A stretch of 64,000 bases of DNA from an uncultured virus (IMG/VR IMGVR_UViG_3300045940_000149) (Duplodnaviria; Heunggongvirae; Uroviricota; Caudoviricetes): the IMG/VR virus record IMGVR_UViG_3300045940_000149; one strand, 5' to 3'. Position numbers and translations under genes: made by a program. The notes below the pieces were generated by a model. It was given only the letters and a program-made list of their open reading frames with translations, did no database searches and was not told the origin of the DNA. Positions 7,560-42,161 of the stretch are shown one piece after another (position 1 is the stretch's first letter; every line of letters begins with the position of its first letter).

Positions 7560-8260
7560 TGCAGTGCGAGCGGACCATCGATATCAAAGTGCATTCTGTC
7601 AGTTGCAGCGACGAGGATCGTCACCTGCCGCCGACCAAGGAAGCAATCGAAGCGATGAAAGAGTCGCTGACAGCGCACGGCCAGATTCTACCGATCGGTG
7701 TCTATCCAGTTGCCCGCAACAGCTATCGGCTGATCGTCGGCGCGACCAGATTCCGTGCGGCTTCCGAACTAGGATGGGAGAACATCCGCGCTTCCATCTG
7801 GATCGGCACTACGCTCGAATTCCAATTGTATGAGCTGGTCGAAAACGTCAATCGTCGCGAGCTGACCGGCAAACAACGCAGGGAAATGCGTGCCAAGATC
7901 AAGGATCTTCAACGCCAGCGGCTCGCTAATGTCGAACCGTCGAAGGGCGGACGTGGACATAGGGGTGGAGTGAGCGAGGCGGCAAGGCAAGCCGGTGTTT
8001 CTGAAACAACTGCCCGACGCCGTAGAACCGAAACACAGACCGAAACCAAACCTCGCCAGAATACAACGAGTGGCGAGGTTTCCGCCGTCGCCAAGTCACG
8101 ACAACAAAGGGAACAAAAGATTACATCCAGTCTGCCGATCGAGGAATTCAGTCGCTTCAAAGCCCTATGCGACCAGCTCAAGCTGAATATTGCTGATGGA
8201 GTTCGTTATTGCATTCGCGCCGAGCTTGATCATCGCATCCCACGGCAAGCTGCAGAATGA
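7559..8260 (+). CDS. ParB-like protein with HTH
   Basis: HGQILPIGV..YRLIVGATRFRA..ELVENVNRRELT; VSEAARQAGVSETTARR. Confidence 0.7.
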   Translation: MQCERTIDIKVHSVSCSDEDRHLPPTKEAIEAMKESLTAHGQILPIGVYPVARNSYRLIVGATRFRAASELGWENIRASIWIGTTLEFQLYELVENVNRRELTGKQRREMRAKIKDLQRQRLANVEPSKGGRGHRGGVSEAARQAGVSETTARRRRTETQTETKPRQNTTSGEVSAVAKSRQQREQKITSSLPIEEFSRFKALCDQLKLNIADGVRYCIRAELDHRIPRQAAE

Positions 8261-9204
8261 GCAAACGTCGCCACCGTCCCAAGATCGAGAAGCGCCCGAT
8301 CGTGTCGCGGGACGAGTGGCTGGCGTGGCACAAGCAGGACATCACTGCCAGCGTGGTCTCGGCCTTGTGGGGGCTGCATCCGCGCGAGACCGCCGCCGGA
8401 CTGTGGGCCAAGCTCACCGGCGTCGATCTCGGACCGGACGACGAGAACTCCGAGCTGCTGGAGCGCGGTCAGGATCTCGAAGTGGTGGTCGGCCGGAAAT
8501 TCCTGCACCGCCACCCCGGCTGGAAGGTGTTCGCCGCCAAGCACTACTACCGGATCGCAGCGCTGCGTCTCGGCGCGACCCCGGACTTCCACGTGATCAA
8601 GCCGGACGGGAAGAAGGGCGTGCTGCAGGCCAAGACCGTGAACCCGAGCACCTTCCGCACCAAGTGGACAGACGAGACGCCCCCGATGTGGATCATGCTG
8701 CAGACCCTGACCGAGATGATGCTGACCAGAAGCGAATTCGGGATCATCGCAGCGCTGGAGATCGGCGACTTCCGCTACCGGCTGCACACCTACGAAGTGC
8801 CGCGGCACGAAGGGGCCGAGCGCCGGATCGAGGACGCGGTGCGCGAGTTCTGGCTGCACGTCGATGCAGGCAACGAGCCAGTGATCGACTACCAGCGCGA
8901 TAGCGCATTGATCGCCGCCATGTACCCGCGGCATGCGCCCGACAAGATCGCCGACCTGCGCTACGACAACTCGCTGCCCGGCCTGCTCGACGAGCGCGAG
9001 GCGTTGAAGGCCACGCTCGACCGCGCCGGTGAGCGCAAGGATGAGATCGATACCGAGCTGAAGGCCAAGATGAAGGACGCCGAGATCGCGCTGGTCAACG
9101 GCTGGCGGATCTCCAACAAGACCATCGACAAGAAGGAACACACCGTCAGGGCAACCAGCTATCGGCAGTTGCGGGTGGTGCGCGAGCAGGGAGAAGCAGC
9201 GTGA
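8257..9204 (+). CDS. YqaJ/lambda-Exo-like exonuclease
   Basis: EWLAWHKQDITAS, ERGQDLE, LGATPDF, LQAKT. Confidence 0.8.
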   Translation: MSKRRHRPKIEKRPIVSRDEWLAWHKQDITASVVSALWGLHPRETAAGLWAKLTGVDLGPDDENSELLERGQDLEVVVGRKFLHRHPGWKVFAAKHYYRIAALRLGATPDFHVIKPDGKKGVLQAKTVNPSTFRTKWTDETPPMWIMLQTLTEMMLTRSEFGIIAALEIGDFRYRLHTYEVPRHEGAERRIEDAVREFWLHVDAGNEPVIDYQRDSALIAAMYPRHAPDKIADLRYDNSLPGLLDEREALKATLDRAGERKDEIDTELKAKMKDAEIALVNGWRISNKTIDKKEHTVRATSYRQLRVVREQGEAA

Positions 9205-9615
9205 GAGCGATCGACAAGCTGCATTGCGTTCAGCGTGAGCTGCGCTGGCGGTACAAGGTGTTCCCCAAGCGCGTCAACGACAAAAAGATGACGCAGGCGC
9301 AAGCCGACCGCGAGATCAAGCTGATGGAAGAGATCGCCGCCGACTATCGCAAACAGGTCGAGGAAGAGACCCCGGGGTTGCCGGTATGAGCAAGGACGAT
9401 CCCCGCTACGGCCCGCAGATCGTGCCCGGCCGCGCCACCCGGATCGGCGTCGCATACTGCGGAGGCCCGGAATGCGGACTGCCGCACATCGTGCTCTACG
9501 ACGAGAACGGGCACGGTTACGCCGACGCCGTCATCGACGAGGCGATCATGCGCTCGCTGGTCAAGGAGCTGGAGAAAGCATTCGAGCGCGGACTGAAACA
9601 CTGAGAGAGGTCAGT

Positions 9616-10653
9616 ATGAGTACGCAGGAAATCACCGTTGTCAACGCGGGCGCAATCAAGGCACTGCGCGAAAATCTCCACAAGATGACAGACCAGTTTC
9701 GGTTTGCTCTGCCCGCGCACATCCCGCCCGAGCGGTTCATTCGGGTCGTGCTCACCGCGGTGCAGAACAATCCGAAACTGCTCAAGTGCTCGCACCAGAG
9801 CCTGTTCAACGCATGCATGAAGGCGGCACAGGACGGCTTGCTGCCGGACGGTCGCGAGGGTGCGATCGTGCCCTATGGCGACGACGGTCCAGATCAGGCG
9901 CAGTGGCTCCCGATGGTGTACGGCATCCGCAAGAAGGTGAGGAATTCCGGCGCGCTGTCCGATTGGAATTGTCAGGTCGTGCAGGAAGGTGACGCGTTCG
10001 ATTATCAGCTCGGCGATTCGCCCTACATCCATCACAAGCCTGCAGCAAAGGGTGGCCGCACGCGTCCGGTGCTGTTCGCTTACTCGGTGGCGAAGTTCCC
10101 CGATGGCTCGCTCAGTCGCGAGGTCATGAACATCGACCAGATCCGCGACATCCAGAGCAAGAGCAAGGCCAAGCGCGGACCGTGGAGCGATCCCATTTTT
10201 TTCCCTGAAATGTGCCGCAAGACGGTGGCCAAGCTGCACGCCAAGCAGCTCCCCATGTCCACCGATCTCGATCGCCTGCTCCACCGCGACGACGAGCTGT
10301 ACGATCTCAAGGCCGCCAAGGCCGATCGCCGCGACGCCAAACCGCCGTCGTCGGTGGCCGAGATGTTCGACAGCTTCGCCGCCGGTGCCGACGAGTCGGA
10401 CGAGCCCAAGAAGATCGAGGAAGCGCCGCCCAAGGAAGTGCCCAAGGCGGAAGCGCCGAAAGAAGCTGCTGAGCCGGAAGCCAAGGCCGCAGAGCCGGTC
10501 GAGCCGACCGACGCCGAACTCGCCGCCTACCAAGCTGGGACCGACGCCCGCCGCCGGGGCGTCCTTCGCAAGGCGCTGCCCGGCGATCTGCGCACGGCGG
10601 ACAAGACACGCGAGGCGCTGGCGTGGACCAAGGGCTGGGACGAGGCGCAATGA
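9616..10653 (+). CDS. recT: RecT single-strand annealing protein
   Basis: ALPAHIPPERFIRV..AAQDGLLPDGREGAIVPY..EMCRKTV. Confidence 0.88.
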   Translation: MSTQEITVVNAGAIKALRENLHKMTDQFRFALPAHIPPERFIRVVLTAVQNNPKLLKCSHQSLFNACMKAAQDGLLPDGREGAIVPYGDDGPDQAQWLPMVYGIRKKVRNSGALSDWNCQVVQEGDAFDYQLGDSPYIHHKPAAKGGRTRPVLFAYSVAKFPDGSLSREVMNIDQIRDIQSKSKAKRGPWSDPIFFPEMCRKTVAKLHAKQLPMSTDLDRLLHRDDELYDLKAAKADRRDAKPPSSVAEMFDSFAAGADESDEPKKIEEAPPKEVPKAEAPKEAAEPEAKAAEPVEPTDAELAAYQAGTDARRRGVLRKALPGDLRTADKTREALAWTKGWDEAQ

Positions 10654-10661
10654 TGCCGAAC

Positions 10662-11179
10662 GCGGGCCGCCTTGCACTGCTTGAAGCCCATGGGACGAGT
10701 GCTGCCCGCTGGAGCCCGGCCGGTCAGCCATTGAAAGCCAGCGGTCGCGTGCCGGGCTCACTTCTTGCGGTCGCCAGAAAATCTATGAAGCCCAAGGCGT
10801 CCCTGCGACCGCGGAGCCCGGCCATCACGTCGATGACATCCGAGTCGCCGCTGCCGGGCTCACCCATTCCCGTTGCGGTCGCCGCACATCGCTTGAAGCC
10901 CCTGTGGCAAATGCGACCGCCGAGCCCGGCCATCCGCGGGGTGAAACCCAAACAAGAATTGCCGGGCTCACTCTTCACCAATGCGGTCGCCATTCCGCCC
11001 TTGAAGCCCATTCCGCCAGTGCGACCGCGGAGCCCGGCCGGAAGCTCGATGAAACCCACATCACGATTGCCGGGCTCACCCGTTGCGGTCGCCACGCGCA
11101 GGCTGAAGCCCATGGAGCTGGTGCGACCGCGGAGCCCGGCCAGAGCTGCGTTGAACCCCACAGATGGCGTGCCGGGCTC
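10662..11179 (+). ncRNA. TIGR-like guide array 1 (10 units, first degenerate)
   Basis: Alternating TGCGGTCGC-CA-N9-TGANNNCCN-N9-TGCGACCGC and GAGCCCGGC-CA-N9-TGANNNCCN-N9-TGCCGGGCTC units. Confidence 0.88.
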
Positions 11180-11199
11180 ACCCTTTCTGCGAGGCCGAC

Positions 11200-11814
11200 A
11201 TGAAAGCTGACCTGCGAACGATCGCCGCCGACCTGTTGCGGACGCACAAGACGATTGCCGCTGCCGCCGCCGAGCTGGTGACGATGATGATGGCGGACGA
11301 CAAGTTGCAGCTCGCAGTCGCCACCGAGTTCTTGCGCAGTCTCGCCAACACCAAGTCCGCCCCGCATGTGGTTCGCTCCCGCCGCCGTCCTGGTCCGCAC
11401 AAGAGCCCCAAGCAACCGACCGCGGCACAGAAGGCAGGCGCGCTGCGGGCCGAGAAGCAGTACATCGCCTCAATCTTCGACCACCGCCTGCGCGGCGGCC
11501 AGCGGCTCGGTCAGATCCGGGTGCATGAGCTGCGAGCCATCGCCGAAGCGAGCGCCAGCACCGCGACCAGCTTCCTCACCCGCGGCTACGAGGACGCGGT
11601 GGAAGCCATCGCCTGCACGCGCATGACGCAGCACTGCGTCGCCGTCGATCCGTTCGCGCTGGTCAAGGACGTGATCAAGGCGACGATCGCCAAGGACATC
11701 TTCGAGCAAGCAAAGATCGATGCCGCCGAAGTGATCCGCGACGGGTCCGCCAAGCTGGCACGCGACCTGATCGCGCGGGCGCAGAAGCCCGAGCCGCCAC
11801 AGGTCACACAATGA
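11200..11814 (+). CDS. Hypothetical 204-aa protein between arrays 1 and 2
   Basis: GAGG RBS then ATG at 11200; no recognised domain. Confidence 0.7.
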   Translation: MKADLRTIAADLLRTHKTIAAAAAELVTMMMADDKLQLAVATEFLRSLANTKSAPHVVRSRRRPGPHKSPKQPTAAQKAGALRAEKQYIASIFDHRLRGGQRLGQIRVHELRAIAEASASTATSFLTRGYEDAVEAIACTRMTQHCVAVDPFALVKDVIKATIAKDIFEQAKIDAAEVIRDGSAKLARDLIARAQKPEPPQVTQ

Positions 11815-11815
11815 T

Positions 11816-12116
11816 TGCGGTCGCCAGCACATCGCTGAAAACCACCAGCTCAGTGCGACCGCCGAGCCCGGCCGAAGCCGTTGTGAAGCCCACCAACAGA
11901 CTGCCGGGCTCACCTATTGCGGTCGCCACCACTGCTCTGAAGCCCAAGGGACGCGTGCGACCGCCGAGCCCGGCCAATTTCCATATGAAACCCGAACCGG
12001 ACTTGCCGGGCTCACCCCTTTGCGGTCGCCACTTGAGGCTTGAAGCCCATGATCTCAATGCGACCGCGGAGCCCGGCCATTCGATGAATGAAACCCAAGC
12101 CGGGCTTGCCGGGCTC
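11816..12116 (+). ncRNA. TIGR-like guide array 2 (6 units)
   Basis: Same alternating units with 9-nt spacers. Confidence 0.9.
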
Positions 12117-12133
12117 GCCCTTCTGGAGGCCAC

Positions 12134-12997
12134 ATGACCGCCATCACTGACACCATCGCTGAAATGCGCCGCCATCATCGCCGCCGCCGGTTTGCGATGA
12201 AGGAGCAGCAGCGATCGGAACGGTCGCTCGAATCGTTCCTGCGCGAGAACGCGACCGACTGGTCGCCGAGCATGAGCGAGGCCGAGCGCGAAATCAGGAA
12301 CAAGATGGTTCACGCCATCATCAAGACCGTCCGCGACGGCGACACCGCCTCCCCGTTCGCCGACATGGTGCTGATGAGCGATCAGAGCCGCGAGCCGTGG
12401 ACGCGCACACGCGACGTGTCGGAGAAGGCCATGGGCAAGCTGGCGATGACCCTGCCGGTCTATCCATGGATCGAATCGATCCGCGGTGCCGGTGCGCTGG
12501 GTCTCGCCACCATCGTCGCCGAGACCGGTGATCTCGCCAACTATCCCAACCCCGCCAAGGTCTGGTCGCGGCTCGGCTTCGCACCCTACGACGGCTTCGC
12601 CGGTTCGAGCTGGAAGAGGGAGACGTGGCGTCCGCGGGCGCTAACGAAGGAAGAGTGGATCGAGCACCCGTTCTCCGGATCTCGGTACGCGCTCATGCAC
12701 CAGATCGCGGTCTGGCTGGTCAATGCGCAATGGATCGGCAAGGCCAAGAGCGAGAGCGGCGAAGGTGAGCCCAACGGTCCCTACGGCGATGTGTATGCCG
12801 CCCGGCGCAAGCACGCGATGAAGACGCACGCCGATTGGACGGACGGACACCGCCGAATGGATGCTTTGCGTATAACGATGAAGGCGTTCCTCAAGGATCT
12901 TTGGGTCGAGTGGCACCGCGCGGCCGAACAGGTTGCGGAGCCGCCGCCGAAGAAGAAGCGCTCGCGCAAGTCGGACGAGCCGCGCATTGGAGCGTGA
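12134..12997 (+). CDS. tasA: IS110/Nop-domain RNA-binding protein without nuclease domain (TasA-like)
   Basis: WIESIRGAGALGLATIVAETGDLANYPNPAKVWSRLGFAP resembles the IS110 Transposase_20/Nop region; no DEDD RuvC or HNH seen; flanked by dual-spacer arrays. Confidence 0.8.
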   Translation: MTAITDTIAEMRRHHRRRRFAMKEQQRSERSLESFLRENATDWSPSMSEAEREIRNKMVHAIIKTVRDGDTASPFADMVLMSDQSREPWTRTRDVSEKAMGKLAMTLPVYPWIESIRGAGALGLATIVAETGDLANYPNPAKVWSRLGFAPYDGFAGSSWKRETWRPRALTKEEWIEHPFSGSRYALMHQIAVWLVNAQWIGKAKSESGEGEPNGPYGDVYAARRKHAMKTHADWTDGHRRMDALRITMKAFLKDLWVEWHRAAEQVAEPPPKKKRSRKSDEPRIGA

Positions 12998-13004
12998 TCA
13001 TGAA

Positions 13005-13208
13005 TGCGGTCGCCACCACTGCTCTGAAGCCCACCGACTTCGTGCGACCGCGGAGCCCGGCCATCGGCGGCCTGATGCCCTATGAAACCCTGCCGGGCTC
13101 ACCCTTCCTGTTTGCGGTCGCCAGTAGATCGTTGAAGACCGTCTTGGTCGTGCGACCGCCGAGCCCGGCCAACCCGTGGTTGATATCCAGAAAACGTATG
13201 CCGGGCTC
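13005..13208 (+). ncRNA. TIGR-like guide array 3 (4 units)
   Basis: Same alternating units. Confidence 0.88.
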
Positions 13209-13223
13209 ACTTTTCCTAGGGGG

Positions 13224-13610
13224 ATGAACATGCGTACGTACCACGGTTGGCGCGACGCCGACCACACTGCCAAGGTGATCGTGATCGAGGACAGCGGGAA
13301 GGAACACCCGCTCAATCTTCGACTGGATCTGCGCAATCACAGTCCCACCGGCCCGGAGTGGGGTTACGCCGGATCGGGACCGGCGCAGCTCGCGCTCGCC
13401 ATCCTGTGCGATGCGCTGGGAGATGACGAGCGCGCCCAGCGGCTCTACCAGATGTTCAAGTTTAAGGTGATCGCTGGTCTCGACCGCGATCAACCATGGA
13501 CGATGAAGGCGCATGCCGTGAGGATGATGGCCCACATCATCGAGCAGGAACGCAACAGCCATGAGCCATTCAGACACGCGCGGTCGCAGGCGGATCGAGA
13601 TAGCGCATGA
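13224..13610 (+). CDS. DUF6166-like protein
   Basis: RNHSPTGPEWGYAGSGPAQLALAIL. Confidence 0.7.
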   Translation: MNMRTYHGWRDADHTAKVIVIEDSGKEHPLNLRLDLRNHSPTGPEWGYAGSGPAQLALAILCDALGDDERAQRLYQMFKFKVIAGLDRDQPWTMKAHAVRMMAHIIEQERNSHEPFRHARSQADRDSA

Positions 13611-19632: not shown

Positions 19633-20425
19633 TGTTGAAGAAGGTCGGCCCGGTGCCGGACACCTACGCCACACCGCCGCGCAAATGCCTGTGGTGCAGA
19701 AAGCATCTCGACAAGGCGACCAACGTGACCGATGTGACCGGGCCGCAGGACGGCGACATCACCATCTGCGCTGGCTGCGGCCACGTGATGGTCTTCACTG
19801 CCGATCTCGACCTGCGCAAGCCGACCAAGGAAGAGCTGGATGCGCTGCAAGCCGATTCGAGGTTTTGCACAATCATGCAGGTGAGCACCCACCTGATCGG
19901 ACCGAAGCGGGAGCGGCCGACATGATCGAGACCCTGATCGTCGTCGCCCAGCTCTCCACCATCGACTGCCGGGAGCATTATCCCGGGCCCGAGCGCGAGC
20001 GCTGGACGTGGCGCACGATCGACGGCCGCCGCTGCTGGTACAAGGGGCGCAAGCTGCCCAAGGACCGGCTGCGCTGGCCGGACCCGCCGACGCCGCCGTT
20101 CAATTGGGCGCGCGACGAGCCGGACGATCCACCAGCCGAGACCGAGCTGCCGAAGACCGACAGCTTCAAGGCGCGCTGGCCGCAGTACTGAGTTGGGGTC
20201 GCCTCCGGATGAAACCCGGTCGGCGAAGGATGACCCCAAGGGAGCTGGCCCGATGACCTGAACAGCCGCAGGTAGGGTCAGCTCCCACCGACGTGAAGCG
20301 CCCGGGGTTTGGGCTTGGACCACGGGTGGACCGCCCAGCGGGAAGTTGGTGGTCGAAAGGAAACAACGTCCCGCAGTCGGGGCCCCCGGTTGTTCCTTGC
20401 CGGGGGTGACCCGGCCAAAGCAGTG

Positions 20426-20456: not shown

Positions 20457-20822
20457 ATGGAGCGTAGCGTGCGCGCGTCGAAGACCCCCCGGGAACGGGT
20501 CACCATCGAGGATGCCGTTCCGATCACCGGCTTGTCGGCCCGGACCATGCAAGAGATGGCCGCCCGCGGACTGATCCCCGGAGCGGCCAAGCTGGGACGG
20601 CGGTGGACCTTCGACCTGCACAAGCTCCGCAAGATGATTGAAGCGAAGGAGCAGGAAACGTGGCAGCGGGCAAACGTGGTAAACTTCCTCCGGGCCTCTT
20701 CTGGCGCGGCACAGTCATTTGGGGCCGCAAGCAAGTTGGCGGTCGGCGACAATCATACCCGCTGGGAACAGATAACCCGAAGATCGCGCAAACGCGTTTT
20801 GAAAAACTTGAAGCAAGACTGA
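20457..20822 (+). CDS. xis: Excisionase (HTH_17-like); start uncertain
   Basis: VTIEDAVPITGLSARTMQEMAARGLIPGAAKLGRRWTF; overlaps int. Confidence 0.75.
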   Translation: MERSVRASKTPRERVTIEDAVPITGLSARTMQEMAARGLIPGAAKLGRRWTFDLHKLRKMIEAKEQETWQRANVVNFLRASSGAAQSFGAASKLAVGDNHTRWEQITRRSRKRVLKNLKQD

Positions 20823-34599: not shown

Positions 34600-34630
34600 A
34601 AAAACAAAAGCCCCGGGAACCGCCCGGGGC
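34600..34630 (-). terminator. Terminator between convergent modules
   Basis: GCCCCGGG-5-CCCGGGGC with T-tract on the minus strand. Confidence 0.7.
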
Positions 34631-39618: not shown

Positions 39619-41328
39619 CTAGTAAATTCGGATCAGCGACCCGAAATTGCCGACCACGCCGGTCGCTGGAGTCGTTGTGGTCCACGTGTTGCCGACCGAG
39701 CTGTTGATGGTGATGGAAGAAATGTCGGTCGCGTTGATATCGAAATAAGAACCACTGTTGTTGATGACGCCATTTTGGTTCTTCAGCAGTGCGGTGCTAC
39801 CTGCCCACGCCGACAGTCCATTCCAGAGATTCCTCATGCTCTCGTTGTTCTGGTAGAGATAGAGCATCGAGCCGACACCGGACTGCATCCCGTCCTGCGC
39901 ATTGCCGTACGCCCCACAATCGTAGAGCGACATTGTGCTGCCGCCGTAGCAGTAGAAGCCGCTGCCCCAACTGTTGGCCGAAAAGCATTTGCTGCAGTCG
40001 AGAGTGCCCTGCGCAACCGCGAACGCATTGTAGCCACCGCCCCACACGCTGACGCCGTCGCAGATCATGCCGCAGCCATGCTCCGGACCGATCGCACCGA
40101 GCGTGCCAGATATGCCGCCATAGGAATTCGCGCCGGTGATCAGAATATTCTTGATGGTGATCTTGCCGGGGCCGGTGTGATTGATTGCCACCAGTCCGGA
40201 CCCGCCGGTCAGGATTGACGCCGCGTTGGTGAACTGGATCTCGGTGCCGTAGCGACCGCGCAGCATCGCGAGATTGTTGCTGGTGTCGCTCGGATTGCCG
40301 GTCTTGTAGAAGTCATTCTTGGTCGGCACCGCCCCGTTCATCGTGCCTTCGACTACGATGCGATCGGCATTGGTGTGATATGTCGTGAACGGCGTGAAGA
40401 TTTTCGGGTTTGGGGCTGCCGCGCCAGCGAGCTTGATCGTCACCGTGATGTTCGGCGGAATGCGCTTGCGGCCGAGATTTCTGAAGGCGTTGTCGAGGTC
40501 GGTATTGTTGGCGACGTTGATCGTGCAATTCGCGGTGATCGTGATGTTGGGAGAGATCCAGAATTGCGTGCCGTCGTAGATGAACAAGCAGGTATCGCCT
40601 GCTACCACATCGGATGGCAGCAGCGCCCCGCCACCCTGCGCGAACACCGGCCTCGCACCCAAGCCGTTGATATTGAGCGTGGTCGGCCCGGTGTTGGTGT
40701 TGTTGATCTTGATCAGGATCGCCAGACCGGCGGCCAGCGAGATTGCTGGCGCACCGGCGGGTGGTGAATAGCTGACCGTCACGGTGTTCGCCGCACCGGA
40801 ATCGACCGCGTACGGAATGTAGACGAAGTAGTTATTGGTGGTGCCAGCGCCGCCGGTGCCGCCGAAATTGATCAGGATGAAGCTGGTGCCGTCGTAGACC
40901 AGCTCGGCCAGACCGCCAGCGGTGAGATCGCCAGCCGAGAGCTGCGATCCATTCGGACGCTTGACCTGCGCGCTCCCGGCACCGGCATTGATGGTGACCG
41001 CGCCAGTGTTGGTGACCTTGATCTTGACGCGCAGCGGCAGGCCGACCGTGTAGCTGGTGATCGGTGGAGCGAACGAGCATGAGATGGTGTTGGCCGACCC
41101 GGTATCCTCCGCATAATTCATCCGCTGCGAGCGGATCGATTTCGCCACCTGTTCGAGATCGGTATCGCTGGGCGTGACGAAACTTCTGGTGATGATCGCC
41201 ACCAGCTCGCGCATCGGGTGCTCGAACGCGGCAGCAGGCGGAATGCTGCCCTGCCGTCCGATCGACGGGTCGCCATTGATGTAGGGCGCGTTCGGATCGG
41301 AGATGCCGTAGGGCTGCACGTATTTCAT
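39619..41328 (-). CDS. Tail fibre/spike with probable beta-helix
   Basis: Follows the YmfQ-like gene; GSIPPAAAFE N-terminus; G/N/S-rich C-terminus. Confidence 0.7.
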   Translation of the reverse strand: MKYVQPYGISDPNAPYINGDPSIGRQGSIPPAAAFEHPMRELVAIITRSFVTPSDTDLEQVAKSIRSQRMNYAEDTGSANTISCSFAPPITSYTVGLPLRVKIKVTNTGAVTINAGAGSAQVKRPNGSQLSAGDLTAGGLAELVYDGTSFILINFGGTGGAGTTNNYFVYIPYAVDSGAANTVTVSYSPPAGAPAISLAAGLAILIKINNTNTGPTTLNINGLGARPVFAQGGGALLPSDVVAGDTCLFIYDGTQFWISPNITITANCTINVANNTDLDNAFRNLGRKRIPPNITVTIKLAGAAAPNPKIFTPFTTYHTNADRIVVEGTMNGAVPTKNDFYKTGNPSDTSNNLAMLRGRYGTEIQFTNAASILTGGSGLVAINHTGPGKITIKNILITGANSYGGISGTLGAIGPEHGCGMICDGVSVWGGGYNAFAVAQGTLDCSKCFSANSWGSGFYCYGGSTMSLYDCGAYGNAQDGMQSGVGSMLYLYQNNESMRNLWNGLSAWAGSTALLKNQNGVINNSGSYFDINATDISSITINSSVGNTWTTTTPATGVVGNFGSLIRIY

Positions 41329-41386
41329 GGCTTCAGTCCCGTCGTTGATAGGTTTAGATTTACAGCCAGCCGTTCGCCGGAACGGT

Positions 41387-41423
41387 CAGGACCGATGAAA
41401 CCCAATGATCAGATGCCGGGCTC
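41387..41423 (+). repeat. Orphan partial TIGR-like unit
   Basis: N9-TGAAACCCA-ATGATCAGA-TGCCGGGCTC; 5' stem arm missing. Confidence 0.75.
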
Positions 41424-41426
41424 CCG

Positions 41427-42161
41427 CTACGGCGTACCCTGCATGGGTCCACCGAACGCCATCTGCGAGAAGTCCATGATGAGGTCGGTGTGTGCGGGCT
41501 TCCACCGATTGAGCAGGCACTCCAACTCTTCGGGAACGGCGAACTCAAGGTGATGATCGACGCCCGCCTGTCCCGAGCCCGCGCGGAACCATCGCAGGCC
41601 AACCGTGCCGGGGCGGATGTACCAGTAGAAACGCTGCTCGGGCGGGCCGATGTACCAGCGGAAATTCTGGTTCTTGGTCGGATCTTGCGTCGGCCGCGTG
41701 TCGCCTACCTGCGAGATCCCGGCCATGAACGGCGCGTACTCGCCGAAGTCCGCGATCTCGATATCCTCGTAGCCGACCCACTCCATCACCTTCTTGTAGT
41801 ATTCGCGCGACTGGCCGCCGAGCCACGTCATCACCATGACGAGCATCTTGCGACGCGATTCGATATCGGTGGTGGACGGGAAGCATGGATCGGGCAGGCC
41901 CCATGCGCGCTCCCACTCGGGAAGCAGCTCGGTGGTCAGACGCGGATCGCTCTCGCGTTCCAGAAGGTCGGCGGCGCGGCCATCGACATATTCCCAAAAC
42001 CACGCGAGGCCGCGGCAGACGCCGTAGATGGTCGAGCCGGGCGAGCGGGACCATATCTTGCCGCGCGGCAGAAGATCGACGAATGCGTCGGTGTAGTCCT
42101 CGCCGTAGCGACGGATGTGCCGATCGCGCTCAATGACGACTGGCGTCTGGTTATGTGCCAT
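41427..42161 (-). CDS. Baseplate protein YmfQ/DUF2313 (Mu gp48-like)
   Basis: LLPRG.IW, ESDP..ELLPEWERAWGLPD, WKPAHT. Confidence 0.85.
   Translation of the reverse strand: MAHNQTPVVIERDRHIRRYGEDYTDAFVDLLPRGKIWSRSPGSTIYGVCRGLAWFWEYVDGRAADLLERESDPRLTTELLPEWERAWGLPDPCFPSTTDIESRRKMLVMVMTWLGGQSREYYKKVMEWVGYEDIEIADFGEYAPFMAGISQVGDTRPTQDPTKNQNFRWYIGPPEQRFYWYIRPGTVGLRWFRAGSGQAGVDHHLEFAVPEELECLLNRWKPAHTDLIMDFSQMAFGGPMQGTP

What the first reader, a model, noticed from the sequence alone, without database searches (positions are those of the whole stretch)
41370..41423. Orphan guide-unit remnant 28 kb away, between baseplate and tail-fibre genes
Seen: TGAAACCCA-N9-TGCCGGGCTC, 19 fixed bases at exact array spacing, in a ~100-nt intergenic gap antisense to the tail operon. 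The expected 5' arm GAGCCCGGCCA is absent; a CCGTTC-GCCG-GAACGG hairpin sits there instead. Inference: a trace of unit mobility or acquisition, a solo guide or decoy, or a recombination scar at the fibre-swap boundary.
Basis: partly seen in the sequence, partly recalled or inferred. Interest (0 to 1): 0.75.

Follow-up and report, generated by a model that had tools for sequence, protein, structure and literature searches.

The report
Broken solo TIGR guide unit
A lone copy of the phage's TIGR guide-RNA unit lies between a baseplate gene and the tail-fibre gene; a 15-base deletion disables it here, but it is intact in sister strains, where its two spacers spell a silent-site variant of the gene next door.

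Summary
TGAAACCCA-N9-TGCCGGGCTC at 41396-41423 (+) is an exact 19/19 match to the type-2 units of the three arrays at 10.7-13.2 kb, and the only match outside them.

It is not a half-unit by origin. Two of six near-identical public records carry 15 more bases between 41390 and 41391. These restore the 5' arm, a box-C-like triplet and four spacer bases, giving a complete unit that fits the published stem-loop TIGR grammar and folds (z -4.2). The window copy does not fold (z +0.67).

The genome encodes a nuclease-less Tas-like protein (12134-12997) whose best fold matches are TasR and TasH.

The roughly 100-nt module (small hairpin plus unit) is an insertion. In 72 of 74 callable relatives the gp48-fibre gap is 33 nt or less. 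One relative with 66% gp48 identity has a full unit at the same place with different spacers.

The intact allele's two spacers match the adjacent gp48 at 15/18 (41476-41493) in dual-strand geometry. All three mismatches are silent third-codon positions.

Similar solo units sit antisense just after late genes in other phages. Most likely this is a decayed solo guide aimed at a variant gp48 allele. Expression and binding are untested.

The parts
41391..41423 (+). Truncated solo type-2 stem-loop TIGR unit. It keeps the last 5 nt of spacer A (41391-95), box D TG (41396-97), loop AAAC (41398-41401), box C CCA (41402-04), spacer B (41405-13), box D TG (41414-15) and the 3' stem arm CCGGGCTC (41416-23).
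   Evidence: exact match. (full allele in L025 and L027). (published grammar). (no stem forms in the window copy).
41390..41391 (+). Deletion point. Sister strains L025 and L027 carry 15 extra bases here: the 8-nt 5' stem arm, a 3-nt box-C-like triplet and the first 4 nt of spacer A.
41370..41385 (+). Small hairpin (6-bp stem, 4-nt loop) lying 5 nt upstream of the unit. The relative L048 has a hairpin of a different sequence at the same place. Other solo units carry collapsed type-1-like stems in this position.
41329..41426 (.). The whole 98-nt intergenic module between the gp48 stop and the fibre start. It is an insertion relative to the usual junction of 33 nt or less. Apart from the indel it is invariant among strains.
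41476..41493 (-). Near-cognate site of the intact solo guide, in gp48 codons 223-229. It matches 15/18 in the geometry 'spacer A followed by reverse complement of spacer B'. All 3 mismatches are at third codon positions and are silent.
41427..42161 (-). Mu gp48-like baseplate gene. Its stop codon lies 3 nt from the unit's 3' arm.
39619..41328 (-). Tail-fibre-like gene with the conserved N-terminus MKYVQPYG, which is shared with relatives.
10663..11179 (+). TIGR-type stem-loop array 1, with alternating type-1 and type-2 units.
11817..12116 (+). Array 2.
13006..13208 (+). Array 3.
12134..12997 (+). TasA-like protein of 287 aa: coiled-coil helices followed by a Nop/IS110-like RNA-binding domain, with no nuclease domain.
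   Evidence: PF02371, E 3e-5. (9mty_A, E 5e-4). (pLDDT 89.5). (TasR 9mty E 1.4e-4, TasH 9w02 E 8.7e-4, then IS621/ISCro4).

Best explanation
The element is a decayed copy of a solo stem-loop TIGR guide gene. In its intact form (sister strains L025 and L027) the + strand, antisense to the tail operon, encodes a small hairpin followed by one complete type-2 unit. That unit has an 8-11-bp GC stem enclosing box C, a 9-nt spacer A, box D, a 4-nt loop, box C, a 9-nt spacer B and box D. By analogy with characterised stem-loop TIGR systems, this RNA would be bound by a dimer of the phage's nuclease-less Tas protein (12134-12997). [quoted passage not shown] TasA-type proteins bind and block rather than cut. 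The two spacers together spell a silent-site variant of codons 223-229 of the adjacent gp48 gene. The likely natural target is therefore the gp48 allele of a related phage, while the carrier's own allele, 53 nt away, is protected by three silent mismatches. Tight linkage keeps the guide and the immune allele together in a recombining population. In this window a 15-bp deletion has removed the 5' stem arm, the first box C and four spacer-A bases. The RNA can no longer form the stem, so the copy is most likely inactive. Shown here: homology, the polymorphism, the grammar fit, the folding difference, the insertion status, the Tas-like fold and the silent-mismatch match. Inferred: transcription of the + strand, Tas binding, the competitor target and the linkage logic.
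For: Identity:
- The 19/19 exact match is the only one outside the arrays.
- The full unit is present in 2 of 6 near-identical records, L025 and L027, versus L024, L026, L028 and G001.
- The unit fits the stem-loop rules of TIGRFinder as printed in the Xu et al. preprint methods. All 15 window array units found by my grammar scan fit them too.
- The full allele folds into two hairpins at -37.8 kcal/mol, z -4.2, with 0 of 200 shuffles as good. The window allele scores z +0.67.

Effector:
- The 287-aa protein's best solved-structure relatives are TasR and TasH.

Insertion and conservation:
- The gap was 33 nt or less in 72 of 74 relatives where a next ORF could be called. The exceptions are L078 and L081.
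- L048 (gp48 66% identical) has a complete unit at the same site and orientation, with different spacers and a compensating hairpin.

Target:
- The 15/18 match lies 53 nt from the unit. Random spacer pairs give such a hit within +-150 nt in 0.15% of 200,000 trials, and 0 of 200 shuffled spacer pairs did as well.
- The three mismatches are all silent third-codon positions.
- A second case is the solo unit of L135, which matches the adjacent head-tail adaptor gene at 14/18 with three silent changes and one Ser/Thr change.

Geometry:
- Among 169 spacer pairs tested against 0.66 Mb of held phage DNA, 3 had a hit with 1 mismatch or fewer in this geometry. The three other geometries gave 0, 0 and 0, and six re-paired control sets gave 0, 0, 0, 0, 0 and 1.
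- At 2 mismatches or fewer the counts were 14 versus 6, 5 and 5 for the other geometries, and 3-9 for the re-paired sets.
- The hits lie in baseplate and fibre genes of relatives.
Against: - No perfectly matching gp48 allele was found. There was none within 3 mismatches in 80 relatives' loci. Among 53 IMG/VR loci sharing the 15 fixed bases of the site, only the phage's own contigs were gp48.
- Only 2 of 18 solo or mini-array units tested show a near-cognate site in the neighbouring gene. L048's unit at this same junction does not (best 6 mismatches).
- No convincing + strand promoter was found. There is one weak sigma-70-like hit at 41090-41117, against 1.6 expected in the 8.2-kb region scanned.
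- RNA-library contigs cover the region but give no strand, and DNA carry-over cannot be excluded.
- The intact allele's first box C reads CTC, a one-letter variant of the accepted triplets.
- The held DNA is rich in baseplate regions, so the gene class of the hits is biased.
- The deleted allele is the commoner one, so the guide is dispensable.
Confidence: 0.68

Rival explanations
1. Self-regulation. The intact guide directs the nuclease-less Tas protein to the phage's own gp48 3' end despite three mismatches. This throttles transcription into the fibre gene, and the deletion allele is a regulatory variant.
For: TasA and dead TasR act as RNA-guided repressors (Xu et al. preprint, abstract and section list). 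The site lies just upstream of the fibre gene. Another array unit (13053) matches the phage's own intergenic DNA at 20209-20226 at 16/18.
Against: A maintained self-target should match perfectly. The three mismatches are all silent codon positions, which is the pattern of allelic divergence in a coding gene. Passages of the 2026 'Asymmetric targeting' preprint report strong mismatch sensitivity for TasH. Tolerance for TasA is unknown.
Confidence: 0.1
2. Selfish or neutral palindromic relic. A TIGR unit was copied into an intergenic gap by recombination, in the manner of a MITE or REP element. It has no guide function at this place, and the spacer match is a coincidence.
For: The module is an insertion. 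Solo units occur at many junctions. The copy here is broken, and the broken allele is common.
Against: Stem, boxes and loop are kept while the spacers differ between this lineage and L048. The match to the adjacent gene is improbable by chance, respects the dual-strand geometry and has silent mismatches. There is a second example in L135.
Confidence: 0.12
3. Cis-acting structure of the late mRNA. On the minus strand the GC-rich stem just after the gp48 stop codon stabilises, processes or uncouples the gp48-fibre transcript. Its likeness to array units reflects only its origin.
For: In 9 of 10 late-context cases the unit's 3' arm lies 3-12 nt from the stop codon of the converging late gene. The minus strand of the full allele also folds strongly (-42.1 kcal/mol, z -3.2).
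Against: No U-tract or terminator-like site was found. The box and loop letters are conserved in the + strand sense, exactly as in the arrays. The deletion allele, which loses the stem, is common, and the fibre gene is intact in it.
Confidence: 0.07
4. Recombination scar at a tail-fibre swap boundary.
For: It lies at the baseplate-fibre junction, a known mosaic boundary in tailed phages (general knowledge).
Against: All strain records are collinear through the junction at 99.2-100% identity. The fibre N-terminus is conserved in relatives with and without the module.
Confidence: 0.02
5. Chance resemblance.
For: None beyond the high G+C content (62.5%). One exact 19-base match elsewhere in IMG/VR (L008) looks like chance inside coding sequence.
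Against: Shuffle expectation was 0.02 even with 3 mismatches allowed. The missing arm is present at the right place in sister strains.
Confidence: 0.005

Closest known systems
Stem-loop TIGR arrays with TasA (Faure et al. 2025, PMC12045711, sections 4, 6, 9, 10 and 24 read; Xu et al. 2026 bioRxiv 10.64898/2026.09.09.750476, abstract, sections 5 and 11 and method passages read)
   Same: Palindromic stem, two 9-nt spacers each flanked by box C (CCA) and box D (TG), and a 4-nt loop gap. A nuclease-less Nop-domain protein is encoded nearby. The arrays are split into sub-arrays around and between genes, and the system is phage-borne.
   Different: This unit stands alone 28 kb from tas, inside the late structural operon and antisense to it. 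It is preceded by a plain hairpin instead of a second unit. It is polymorphic for a disabling 15-bp deletion. Its spacers are a silent-site variant of the neighbouring gene. The texts I read describe units upstream of, downstream of or within tas, and their searches reached at most 10 kb on either side of tas.
Freestanding homing endonuclease genes of T-even phages (recalled from general knowledge; not looked up here)
   Same: An intergenic insertion between conserved genes that most relatives lack. The recognition site lies in the adjacent conserved gene. The carrier's own site is protected by silent polymorphisms.
   Different: There is no nuclease here. The specificity would come from an RNA guide with a protein encoded 28 kb away, and no gene conversion has been shown.
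Mini-CRISPR arrays and solitary repeat units carried by viruses (recalled from general knowledge; not looked up here)
   Same: Isolated guide units on viral genomes that appear to be aimed at related viruses.
   Different: The guide chemistry and protein family differ: dual-strand TIGR pairing rather than a single crRNA spacer. In addition, the effector here is phage-encoded.
IS110/IS621 bridge RNA (structures 8wt6 and 9t56 appear as weaker fold hits)
   Same: A related RNA-binding domain, and a single structured guide whose loops pair with both DNA strands.
   Different: No DEDD/RuvC or Tnp catalytic domains were detected in the 287-aa protein. No transposon ends were seen. One spacer pair is present rather than target and donor loops.

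Membership tests
Stem-loop TIGR unit (tigRNA gene) | Palindromic stem of at least 5 bp flanking the spacer pair | tested here: not met
   The window copy lacks the 5' arm and forms no stem. The allele in L025 and L027 has it, with 8 bp of core stem extended to 11 bp.
Stem-loop TIGR unit (tigRNA gene) | Two 14-nt intervals (box C C[C/G/T/A]A, 9-nt spacer, box D TG/CG) no more than 15 nt apart (rule quoted) | tested here: inconclusive
   The window copy keeps only the second interval intact. The full allele has CTC as its first box C, a one-letter variant, and a perfect second interval. Array units and L048's solo unit fit perfectly.
TIGR-Tas system | A Tas protein with a Nop-type RNA-binding domain encoded by the same genome | tested here: met
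   ORF 12134-12997: PF02371 E 3e-5; best PDB sequence hit is TasR 9mty_A (9MTY identified as TasR); Foldseek top hits are TasR and TasH at probability 1.00.
TIGR-Tas system | Units arranged in tandem beside or within tas | tested here: not met
   The arrays at 10.7-13.2 kb meet this. The unit under study is single and lies 28 kb away.
TIGR-Tas system | Unit transcribed, processed and loaded on Tas | not testable with these tools
   Only strand-blind contigs from RNA libraries cover the place.
TIGR-Tas system | Spacer A and spacer B complementary to opposite strands of one contiguous target | tested here: inconclusive
   A 15/18 site lies in the adjacent gp48 in a dual-strand geometry. No 18/18 gp48 allele was found.
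Homing-element-like cassette (analogy only) | A nuclease that cuts the insert-free allele | tested here: not met
   Neither Pfam nor the fold search showed a nuclease domain in the 287-aa protein.
Homing-element-like cassette (analogy only) | An insert lying between conserved genes and absent from most relatives | tested here: met

The most novel reading that the evidence does not exclude
Solo TIGR units are RNA-guided homing or marker-exclusion cassettes. Each sits beside the gene whose rival alleles it recognises. During co-infection, Tas binding at the rival allele stalls or opens the DNA. The phage's RecE/RecT-type recombination genes, which lie immediately upstream of the arrays, then repair from the carrier genome. 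This copies the unit together with its linked immune (silent-variant) allele, and perhaps the adjacent fibre gene, into the rival. That would explain four things: why units appear as clean insertions at conserved gene junctions, why guide and near-target are under 110 nt apart in two lineages, why own-site mismatches are silent, and how TIGR units spread and seed new loci.
Probability: 0.15. Interest if true: 0.9.

Novelty: new variant of a known kind. Interest (0 to 1): 0.64.

Why it matters
The founding TIGR-Tas paper states that natural targets are hard to identify, and that how arrays arise and expand is unknown (PMC12045711, Discussion). This locus offers a concrete, testable case for three reasons.

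- It is a single guide outside any array, caught in two states in one natural population: intact and deleted.
- Its spacer pair can be read as a silent-site variant of the neighbouring structural gene.
- Across the related phages held here, spacer pairs match baseplate and fibre genes of relatives in one specific dual-strand geometry more often than controls do.

If this holds, TIGR-TasA in these soil phages works in phage-against-phage conflict, or in allele-specific control of structural genes. It would also mean that guide units disperse through genomes, where array-centred searches that stay within about 10 kb of tas do not look.

Tried and rejected
- **Annotated phage collection:** no similar DNA was found for the junction or the array region.
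- **gp48 in bacterial and archaeal genomes:** none found. The unit pattern in those genomes gave 2 hits, both chance matches in coding DNA whose boxes do not fit.
- **Whole genome:** none is held for this window.
- **Sister record G001:** it ends at about window 13464, beside the arrays. Its lack of arrays and of tas therefore says nothing about array loss.
- **Search for an exact target allele:** a degenerate pattern of the window's own site returned 53 loci. Only the phage's own contigs were gp48, and three exact 18/18 matches lie in unrelated genes, about as expected by chance.
- **Target next to the unit as a general rule:** only 2 of 18 units show it. L113 has a 15/18 hit 50 nt upstream, but in a different geometry, so I did not count it.
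- **Promoter search:** no shared motif was seen upstream of solo units by eye, and there was one weak hit in the scan.
- **Rfam:** no family matched at 40800-42000.
- **Reads:** run X19 laid only a 36-nt piece at 90-95% likeness and says nothing. The RNA-library contigs X21 and X22 give neither strand nor ends.
- **Earlier-findings index:** nothing was returned.
- **Microhomology at the deletion ends:** none found by inspection.
- **Papers not read in full:** I did not read the three TIGR papers whole and saw no supplements. bioRxiv supplements are closed, and Faure table S1 was not opened. Those files may already list this locus.

Full report
**1. The observation**

The + strand reads TGAAACCCA (41396-41404), nine bases, then TGCCGGGCTC (41414-41423). 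A hairpin, CCGTTC-GCCG-GAACGG, lies at 41370-41385.

The 98-nt gap (41329-41426) separates two minus-strand genes. One is a Mu gp48-like baseplate gene (41427-42161; PF10076, E 7e-21). The other is a 569-aa gene (39619-41328) that hits only uncharacterised PHROGs, but it shares the N-terminus MKYVQPYG with the gene that follows gp48 in relatives.

With up to three mismatches the pattern occurs 11 times in the window: 10 times inside three arrays and once here, with no mismatch. Shuffles gave a mean of 0.02, and 0 of 100 reached 11. The window is 62.5% G+C. My arithmetic from those base counts gives about 1e-6 for one exact match by chance.

Half-unit patterns of both unit types find nothing else outside the arrays, apart from weak 3-mismatch hits that I take to be chance.

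**2. What the arrays are**

Arrays at 10663-11179, 11817-12116 and 13006-13208 (+) alternate two hairpin units with a period of about 103-108 nt.

The methods of Xu et al. (bioRxiv 10.64898/2026.09.09.750476; passages seen) define stem-loop TIGR units by three rules:
- box C is CCA, CGA, CTA or CAA, followed by a 9-nt spacer and box D (TG or CG);
- this 14-nt interval occurs twice, no more than 15 nt apart;
- the pair is flanked by a stem of at least 5 bp.

The type-2 unit reads stem GAGCCCGG, CCA, N9, TG, AAAC, CCA, N9, TG, stem CCGGGCTC. The type-1 unit has the same grammar with the stem GCGGTCG/CGACCGC. My grammar scan recovers 15 units in the window, all inside the arrays.

The ORF after array 2 (12134-12997, 287 aa) has these properties:
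- It hits PF02371 (E 3e-5).
- Its best sequence match among solved structures is 9mty_A (E 5e-4). The Science paper names 9MTY as TasR.
- An AlphaFold model built from 31 sequences has mean pLDDT 89.5.
- The model's Foldseek top hits are TasR 9mty (E 1.4e-4), then TasH 9w02/9vzx/9w04/9w03/21kl, then at weaker scores the IS110-family recombinases ISCro4 and IS621.
- The model shows long N-terminal helices followed by the RNA-binding domain. No nuclease domain was detected.

I therefore call it TasA-like.

**3. The orphan is a deleted full unit**

Five IMG/VR contigs encode an identical gp48. Aligned across the gap, L025 and L027 carry 15 extra bases exactly between window 41390 and 41391. L024, L026 and L028 match the window. 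The 77-kb record G001 also has the deleted form, at 100% identity over 41000-41800.

The 15 bases supply the 8-nt 5' arm, a box-C-like triplet (CTC) and the first four bases of a 9-nt spacer A. The result is a complete type-2 unit.

Folded as RNA, the two alleles behave differently:
- The full allele forms the small hairpin plus an 11-bp stem enclosing the spacer region: -37.8 kcal/mol, z -4.2, 0 of 200 shuffles as good.
- The window allele keeps only the small hairpin: z +0.67.

The strains are collinear through the junction at 99.2-100% identity. They differ by scattered SNPs that are shared in mosaic fashion. The module itself is invariant apart from the indel. This is therefore a segregating deletion in a recombining population, not a fibre-swap scar.

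The read data add little:
- A DNA run contig (X16) shows the deleted form.
- A 151-nt record from an RNA library (X21) also shows the deleted form.
- Neither gives strand information, and DNA carry-over cannot be excluded.

**4. The module is an insertion, conserved in one distant relative**

I examined 80 metagenome loci with gp48 relatives at 49-69% identity. A following ORF could be called in 74 of them.
- In 72 the gap is -29 to +33 nt, typically 10-20 nt with a GGAG-type ribosome site before the conserved fibre start.
- The two exceptions, L078 (53 nt) and L081 (72 nt), hold a hairpin after a shared CCTGAC motif but no unit.
- The other six were short or ambiguous.

One of those six, L048 (66% gp48 identity; the contig ends 109 nt after the stop), has a complete, grammar-perfect type-2 unit at the same place and in the same antisense orientation. 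Its spacers are different. It has the same CCTGACC linker and a hairpin of different sequence (CCGCCACG-CG-CGTGGCGG in place of CCGTTC-CGGC-GAACGG on the gp48 strand).

Stem, boxes and loop are thus conserved while the spacers differ. That is what is expected of a guide gene.

G004, a 24-kb contig with large arrays, has a gp48 (54% identity) without a type-2 unit beside it.

**5. Solo units recur**

The full type-2 pattern occurs in 45 loci from 28 IMG/VR contigs. Besides arrays, many loci hold a single match. Flanking ORFs were classified with PHROGs.

Ten distinct late-gene contexts carry a lone unit or a mini-array of one or two double units, always antisense to the late genes:
- after terminase large subunit (L136, L119, L151);
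- after major head protein (L128, duplicated as L134);
- after a tape-measure-like gene (L117, duplicated as L124);
- after head-tail adaptor (L135);
- next to a head gene (L138);
- upstream of a protease/head gene (L140);
- after gp48 (this phage, and L048).

In 9 of the 10, the converging gene's stop codon lies 3-12 nt from the unit's 3' arm.

Units in early-type contexts lie in the sense orientation: L113, L126, L149, and L141/L148 inside a tas-like gene. L125, L127 and L137 could not be classified.

Several solo units are preceded by a short plain hairpin whose stem resembles a collapsed type-1 stem. Others are preceded by a full second unit.

In the texts I read, units are described upstream of, downstream of or within tas, and the searches were confined to the tas neighbourhood. 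The words 'orphan', 'solo' and 'dispersed' do not occur in the Xu preprint. 'Orphan' has 0 occurrences in the three primary TIGR papers listed. I did not read these papers whole or see their supplements.

**6. What the intact guide would recognise**

TIGR spacers A and B pair with opposite strands of one contiguous target (PMC12045711 section 6; passages of bioRxiv 10.64898/2026.08.11.744272).

I took spacer A from L025 and spacer B from the window. The arrangement 'A followed by reverse complement of B' matches the window at 41476-41493 (minus strand) in 15 of 18 positions, 53 nt from the unit's 3' arm.

Chance controls:
- Random spacer pairs drawn from the window give a hit with 3 mismatches or fewer within +-150 nt in 0.15% of 200,000 trials.
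- 0 of 200 shuffled versions of these spacers did as well within +-400 nt.

The site covers gp48 codons 223-229 (AHTDLIM). The three mismatches fall on the third bases of codons 223, 226 and 227, and none changes the amino acid.

The two halves are arranged as TIGR targeting requires: one direct, one inverted and swapped. A simple local duplication therefore cannot explain the match.

A second case is the solo unit of L135. It matches the adjacent adaptor gene at 14 of 18 positions, 106 nt from the unit, with three silent differences and one Ser/Thr difference.

The other 16 units tested show only background (6-8 mismatches). L048 is among them.

**7. Which geometry is real, and what array guides match**

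I took 169 distinct spacer pairs from all held loci and searched them against 0.66 Mb of held phage DNA, with units masked and the loci left out.

| Pairing tested | Units with a hit at 1 mismatch or fewer | Units with a hit at 2 mismatches or fewer |
|---|---|---|
| True pairs, 'A then rc(B)' | 3 | 14 |
| True pairs, the three other geometries | 0, 0, 0 | 6, 5, 5 |
| Six re-paired control sets | 0, 0, 0, 0, 0, 1 | 8, 8, 9, 4, 3, 9 |

The best hits are:
- L147 unit to a fibre gene in L059;
- L140 solo unit to a gp46-like gene in L063 and, at the homologous place, in L076;
- L012 unit to L059;
- the window's own array unit at 11132 to the homologous place of baseplate J in L033 and L079, at 16/18 each.

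The window's own baseplate J has at least 6 mismatches to that last guide.

The held DNA is dominated by baseplate regions, so the gene class of these hits is biased. The excess over controls is the evidence.

**8. Reading**

The best-supported account is a solo guide gene aimed at a variant allele of the neighbouring gp48, disabled in this window by the 15-bp deletion.

Silent-position mismatches indicate that the spacers correspond to a real coding allele of gp48. That allele belongs either to a relative or to an ancestor from which the present gene has escaped.

Close linkage of the guide and the mismatched (immune) allele would keep recombination from creating self-targeting genomes. That logic is inference.

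No exact target allele was found. Transcription of the + strand is not shown; there is one weak promoter-like hit at 41090-41117. Tas binding is untested.

The rivals are self-regulation through the imperfect own site, a selfish palindromic relic, a cis-acting late-mRNA structure, a swap scar and chance. They are set out with their evidence in the Rival explanations section.

**9. Comparison and novelty**

The system is a member of the stem-loop TIGR-TasA kind, as the arrays and the protein show.

The element under study fails two membership features in this window: it has no stem and it is not in an array. It is best described as a decayed solo unit.

Three things appear new relative to the texts I read:
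- guide units dispersed far from tas, inside late operons;
- a natural intact/deleted polymorphism;
- a spacer pair that reads as a silent variant of the adjacent gene.

The boldest reading that the evidence does not exclude is an RNA-guided homing-like cassette working with the RecE/RecT-type genes (8257-9204 and 9472-10653) that lie just upstream of the arrays.

Noticed in passing
window 10663-13230: Each of the three arrays ends a few bases before a ribosome site and the ATG of the next + strand gene. Array 1 is followed by a 216-aa ORF with no family (about 11200-11814), array 2 by the Tas-like gene at 12134, and array 3 by a DUF6166 gene at 13224. The block directly follows a YqaJ-type exonuclease (8257-9204) and RecT (9472-10653). 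The arrays therefore look like spacers of one early operon tied to the recombination module.
   Followed up: partly
window 13053-13100 and 20209-20226: Array unit 13053 has a spacer B that resembles the loop motif. Its spacer pair matches the phage's own intergenic DNA at 20209-20226 in 16/18 positions, in the favoured geometry. The site lies in the 265-nt gap upstream of a 121-aa ORF (20457-20822) that looks like a helix-turn-helix protein by eye. This may be a self-regulatory target.
   Followed up: partly
window 11132-11179; L033:1723-1740; L079:1732-1749: The spacer pair of the window's array unit at 11132 matches the homologous place of the baseplate J gene in two relatives at 16/18 each. 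The window's own baseplate J differs at 6 or more positions.
   Followed up: partly
L078 and L081, just after the gp48 stop: Two relatives have a 53-72-nt gap at the same junction. It holds the CCTGAC motif and a hairpin, which in L081 has a type-1-like stem GGCGACC/GGTCGCC, but no guide unit. This may be a further stage of decay of the same module.
   Followed up: no
L141 and L148 (unit at 1201-1248 of each locus): A type-2 unit lies inside the lysine-rich N-terminal coding region of a 323-aa tas-like gene (phrog_4285). This matches the intragenic tigRNAs described in the Xu et al. preprint.
   Followed up: no
L052:795-841 (minus strand): This is a grammar-perfect unit with a different, perfect 8-bp stem (GCCGCCGA/TCGGCGGC), antisense in the baseplate region of another relative. 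It overlaps a 62-aa + strand ORF, so it is either an embedded unit or a rare coincidence.
   Followed up: partly
window 34610-34630: A strong intrinsic terminator (8 G-C pairs followed by a T-run) sits on the minus strand where the + strand arm (1-34.4 kb) and the minus-strand late arm (34.8-64 kb) converge. Whether + strand transcription reads through it into the late region, which could express the solo unit, is unknown.
   Followed up: no
G001 (77,254 nt) versus window: The nearest public record of this phage ends at about window position 13464, some 250 nt past array 3. The assembly probably broke near the repeats. The record extends about 26.7 kb beyond the window's right end, so the genome is at least about 90 kb.
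   Followed up: partly
L008:3001-3028: This is an exact 19-base match to the half-unit pattern inside coding-looking sequence of an unrelated 64-kb viral contig, with no arm or array around it. It is most likely chance, given the size of the collection.
   Followed up: partly
L113:1151-1168: A solo unit between an unknown gene and a radical-SAM gene has a 15/18 match 50 nt upstream of itself, with spacer B copied 9/9. The geometry is not the favoured one. This is unexplained.
   Followed up: no
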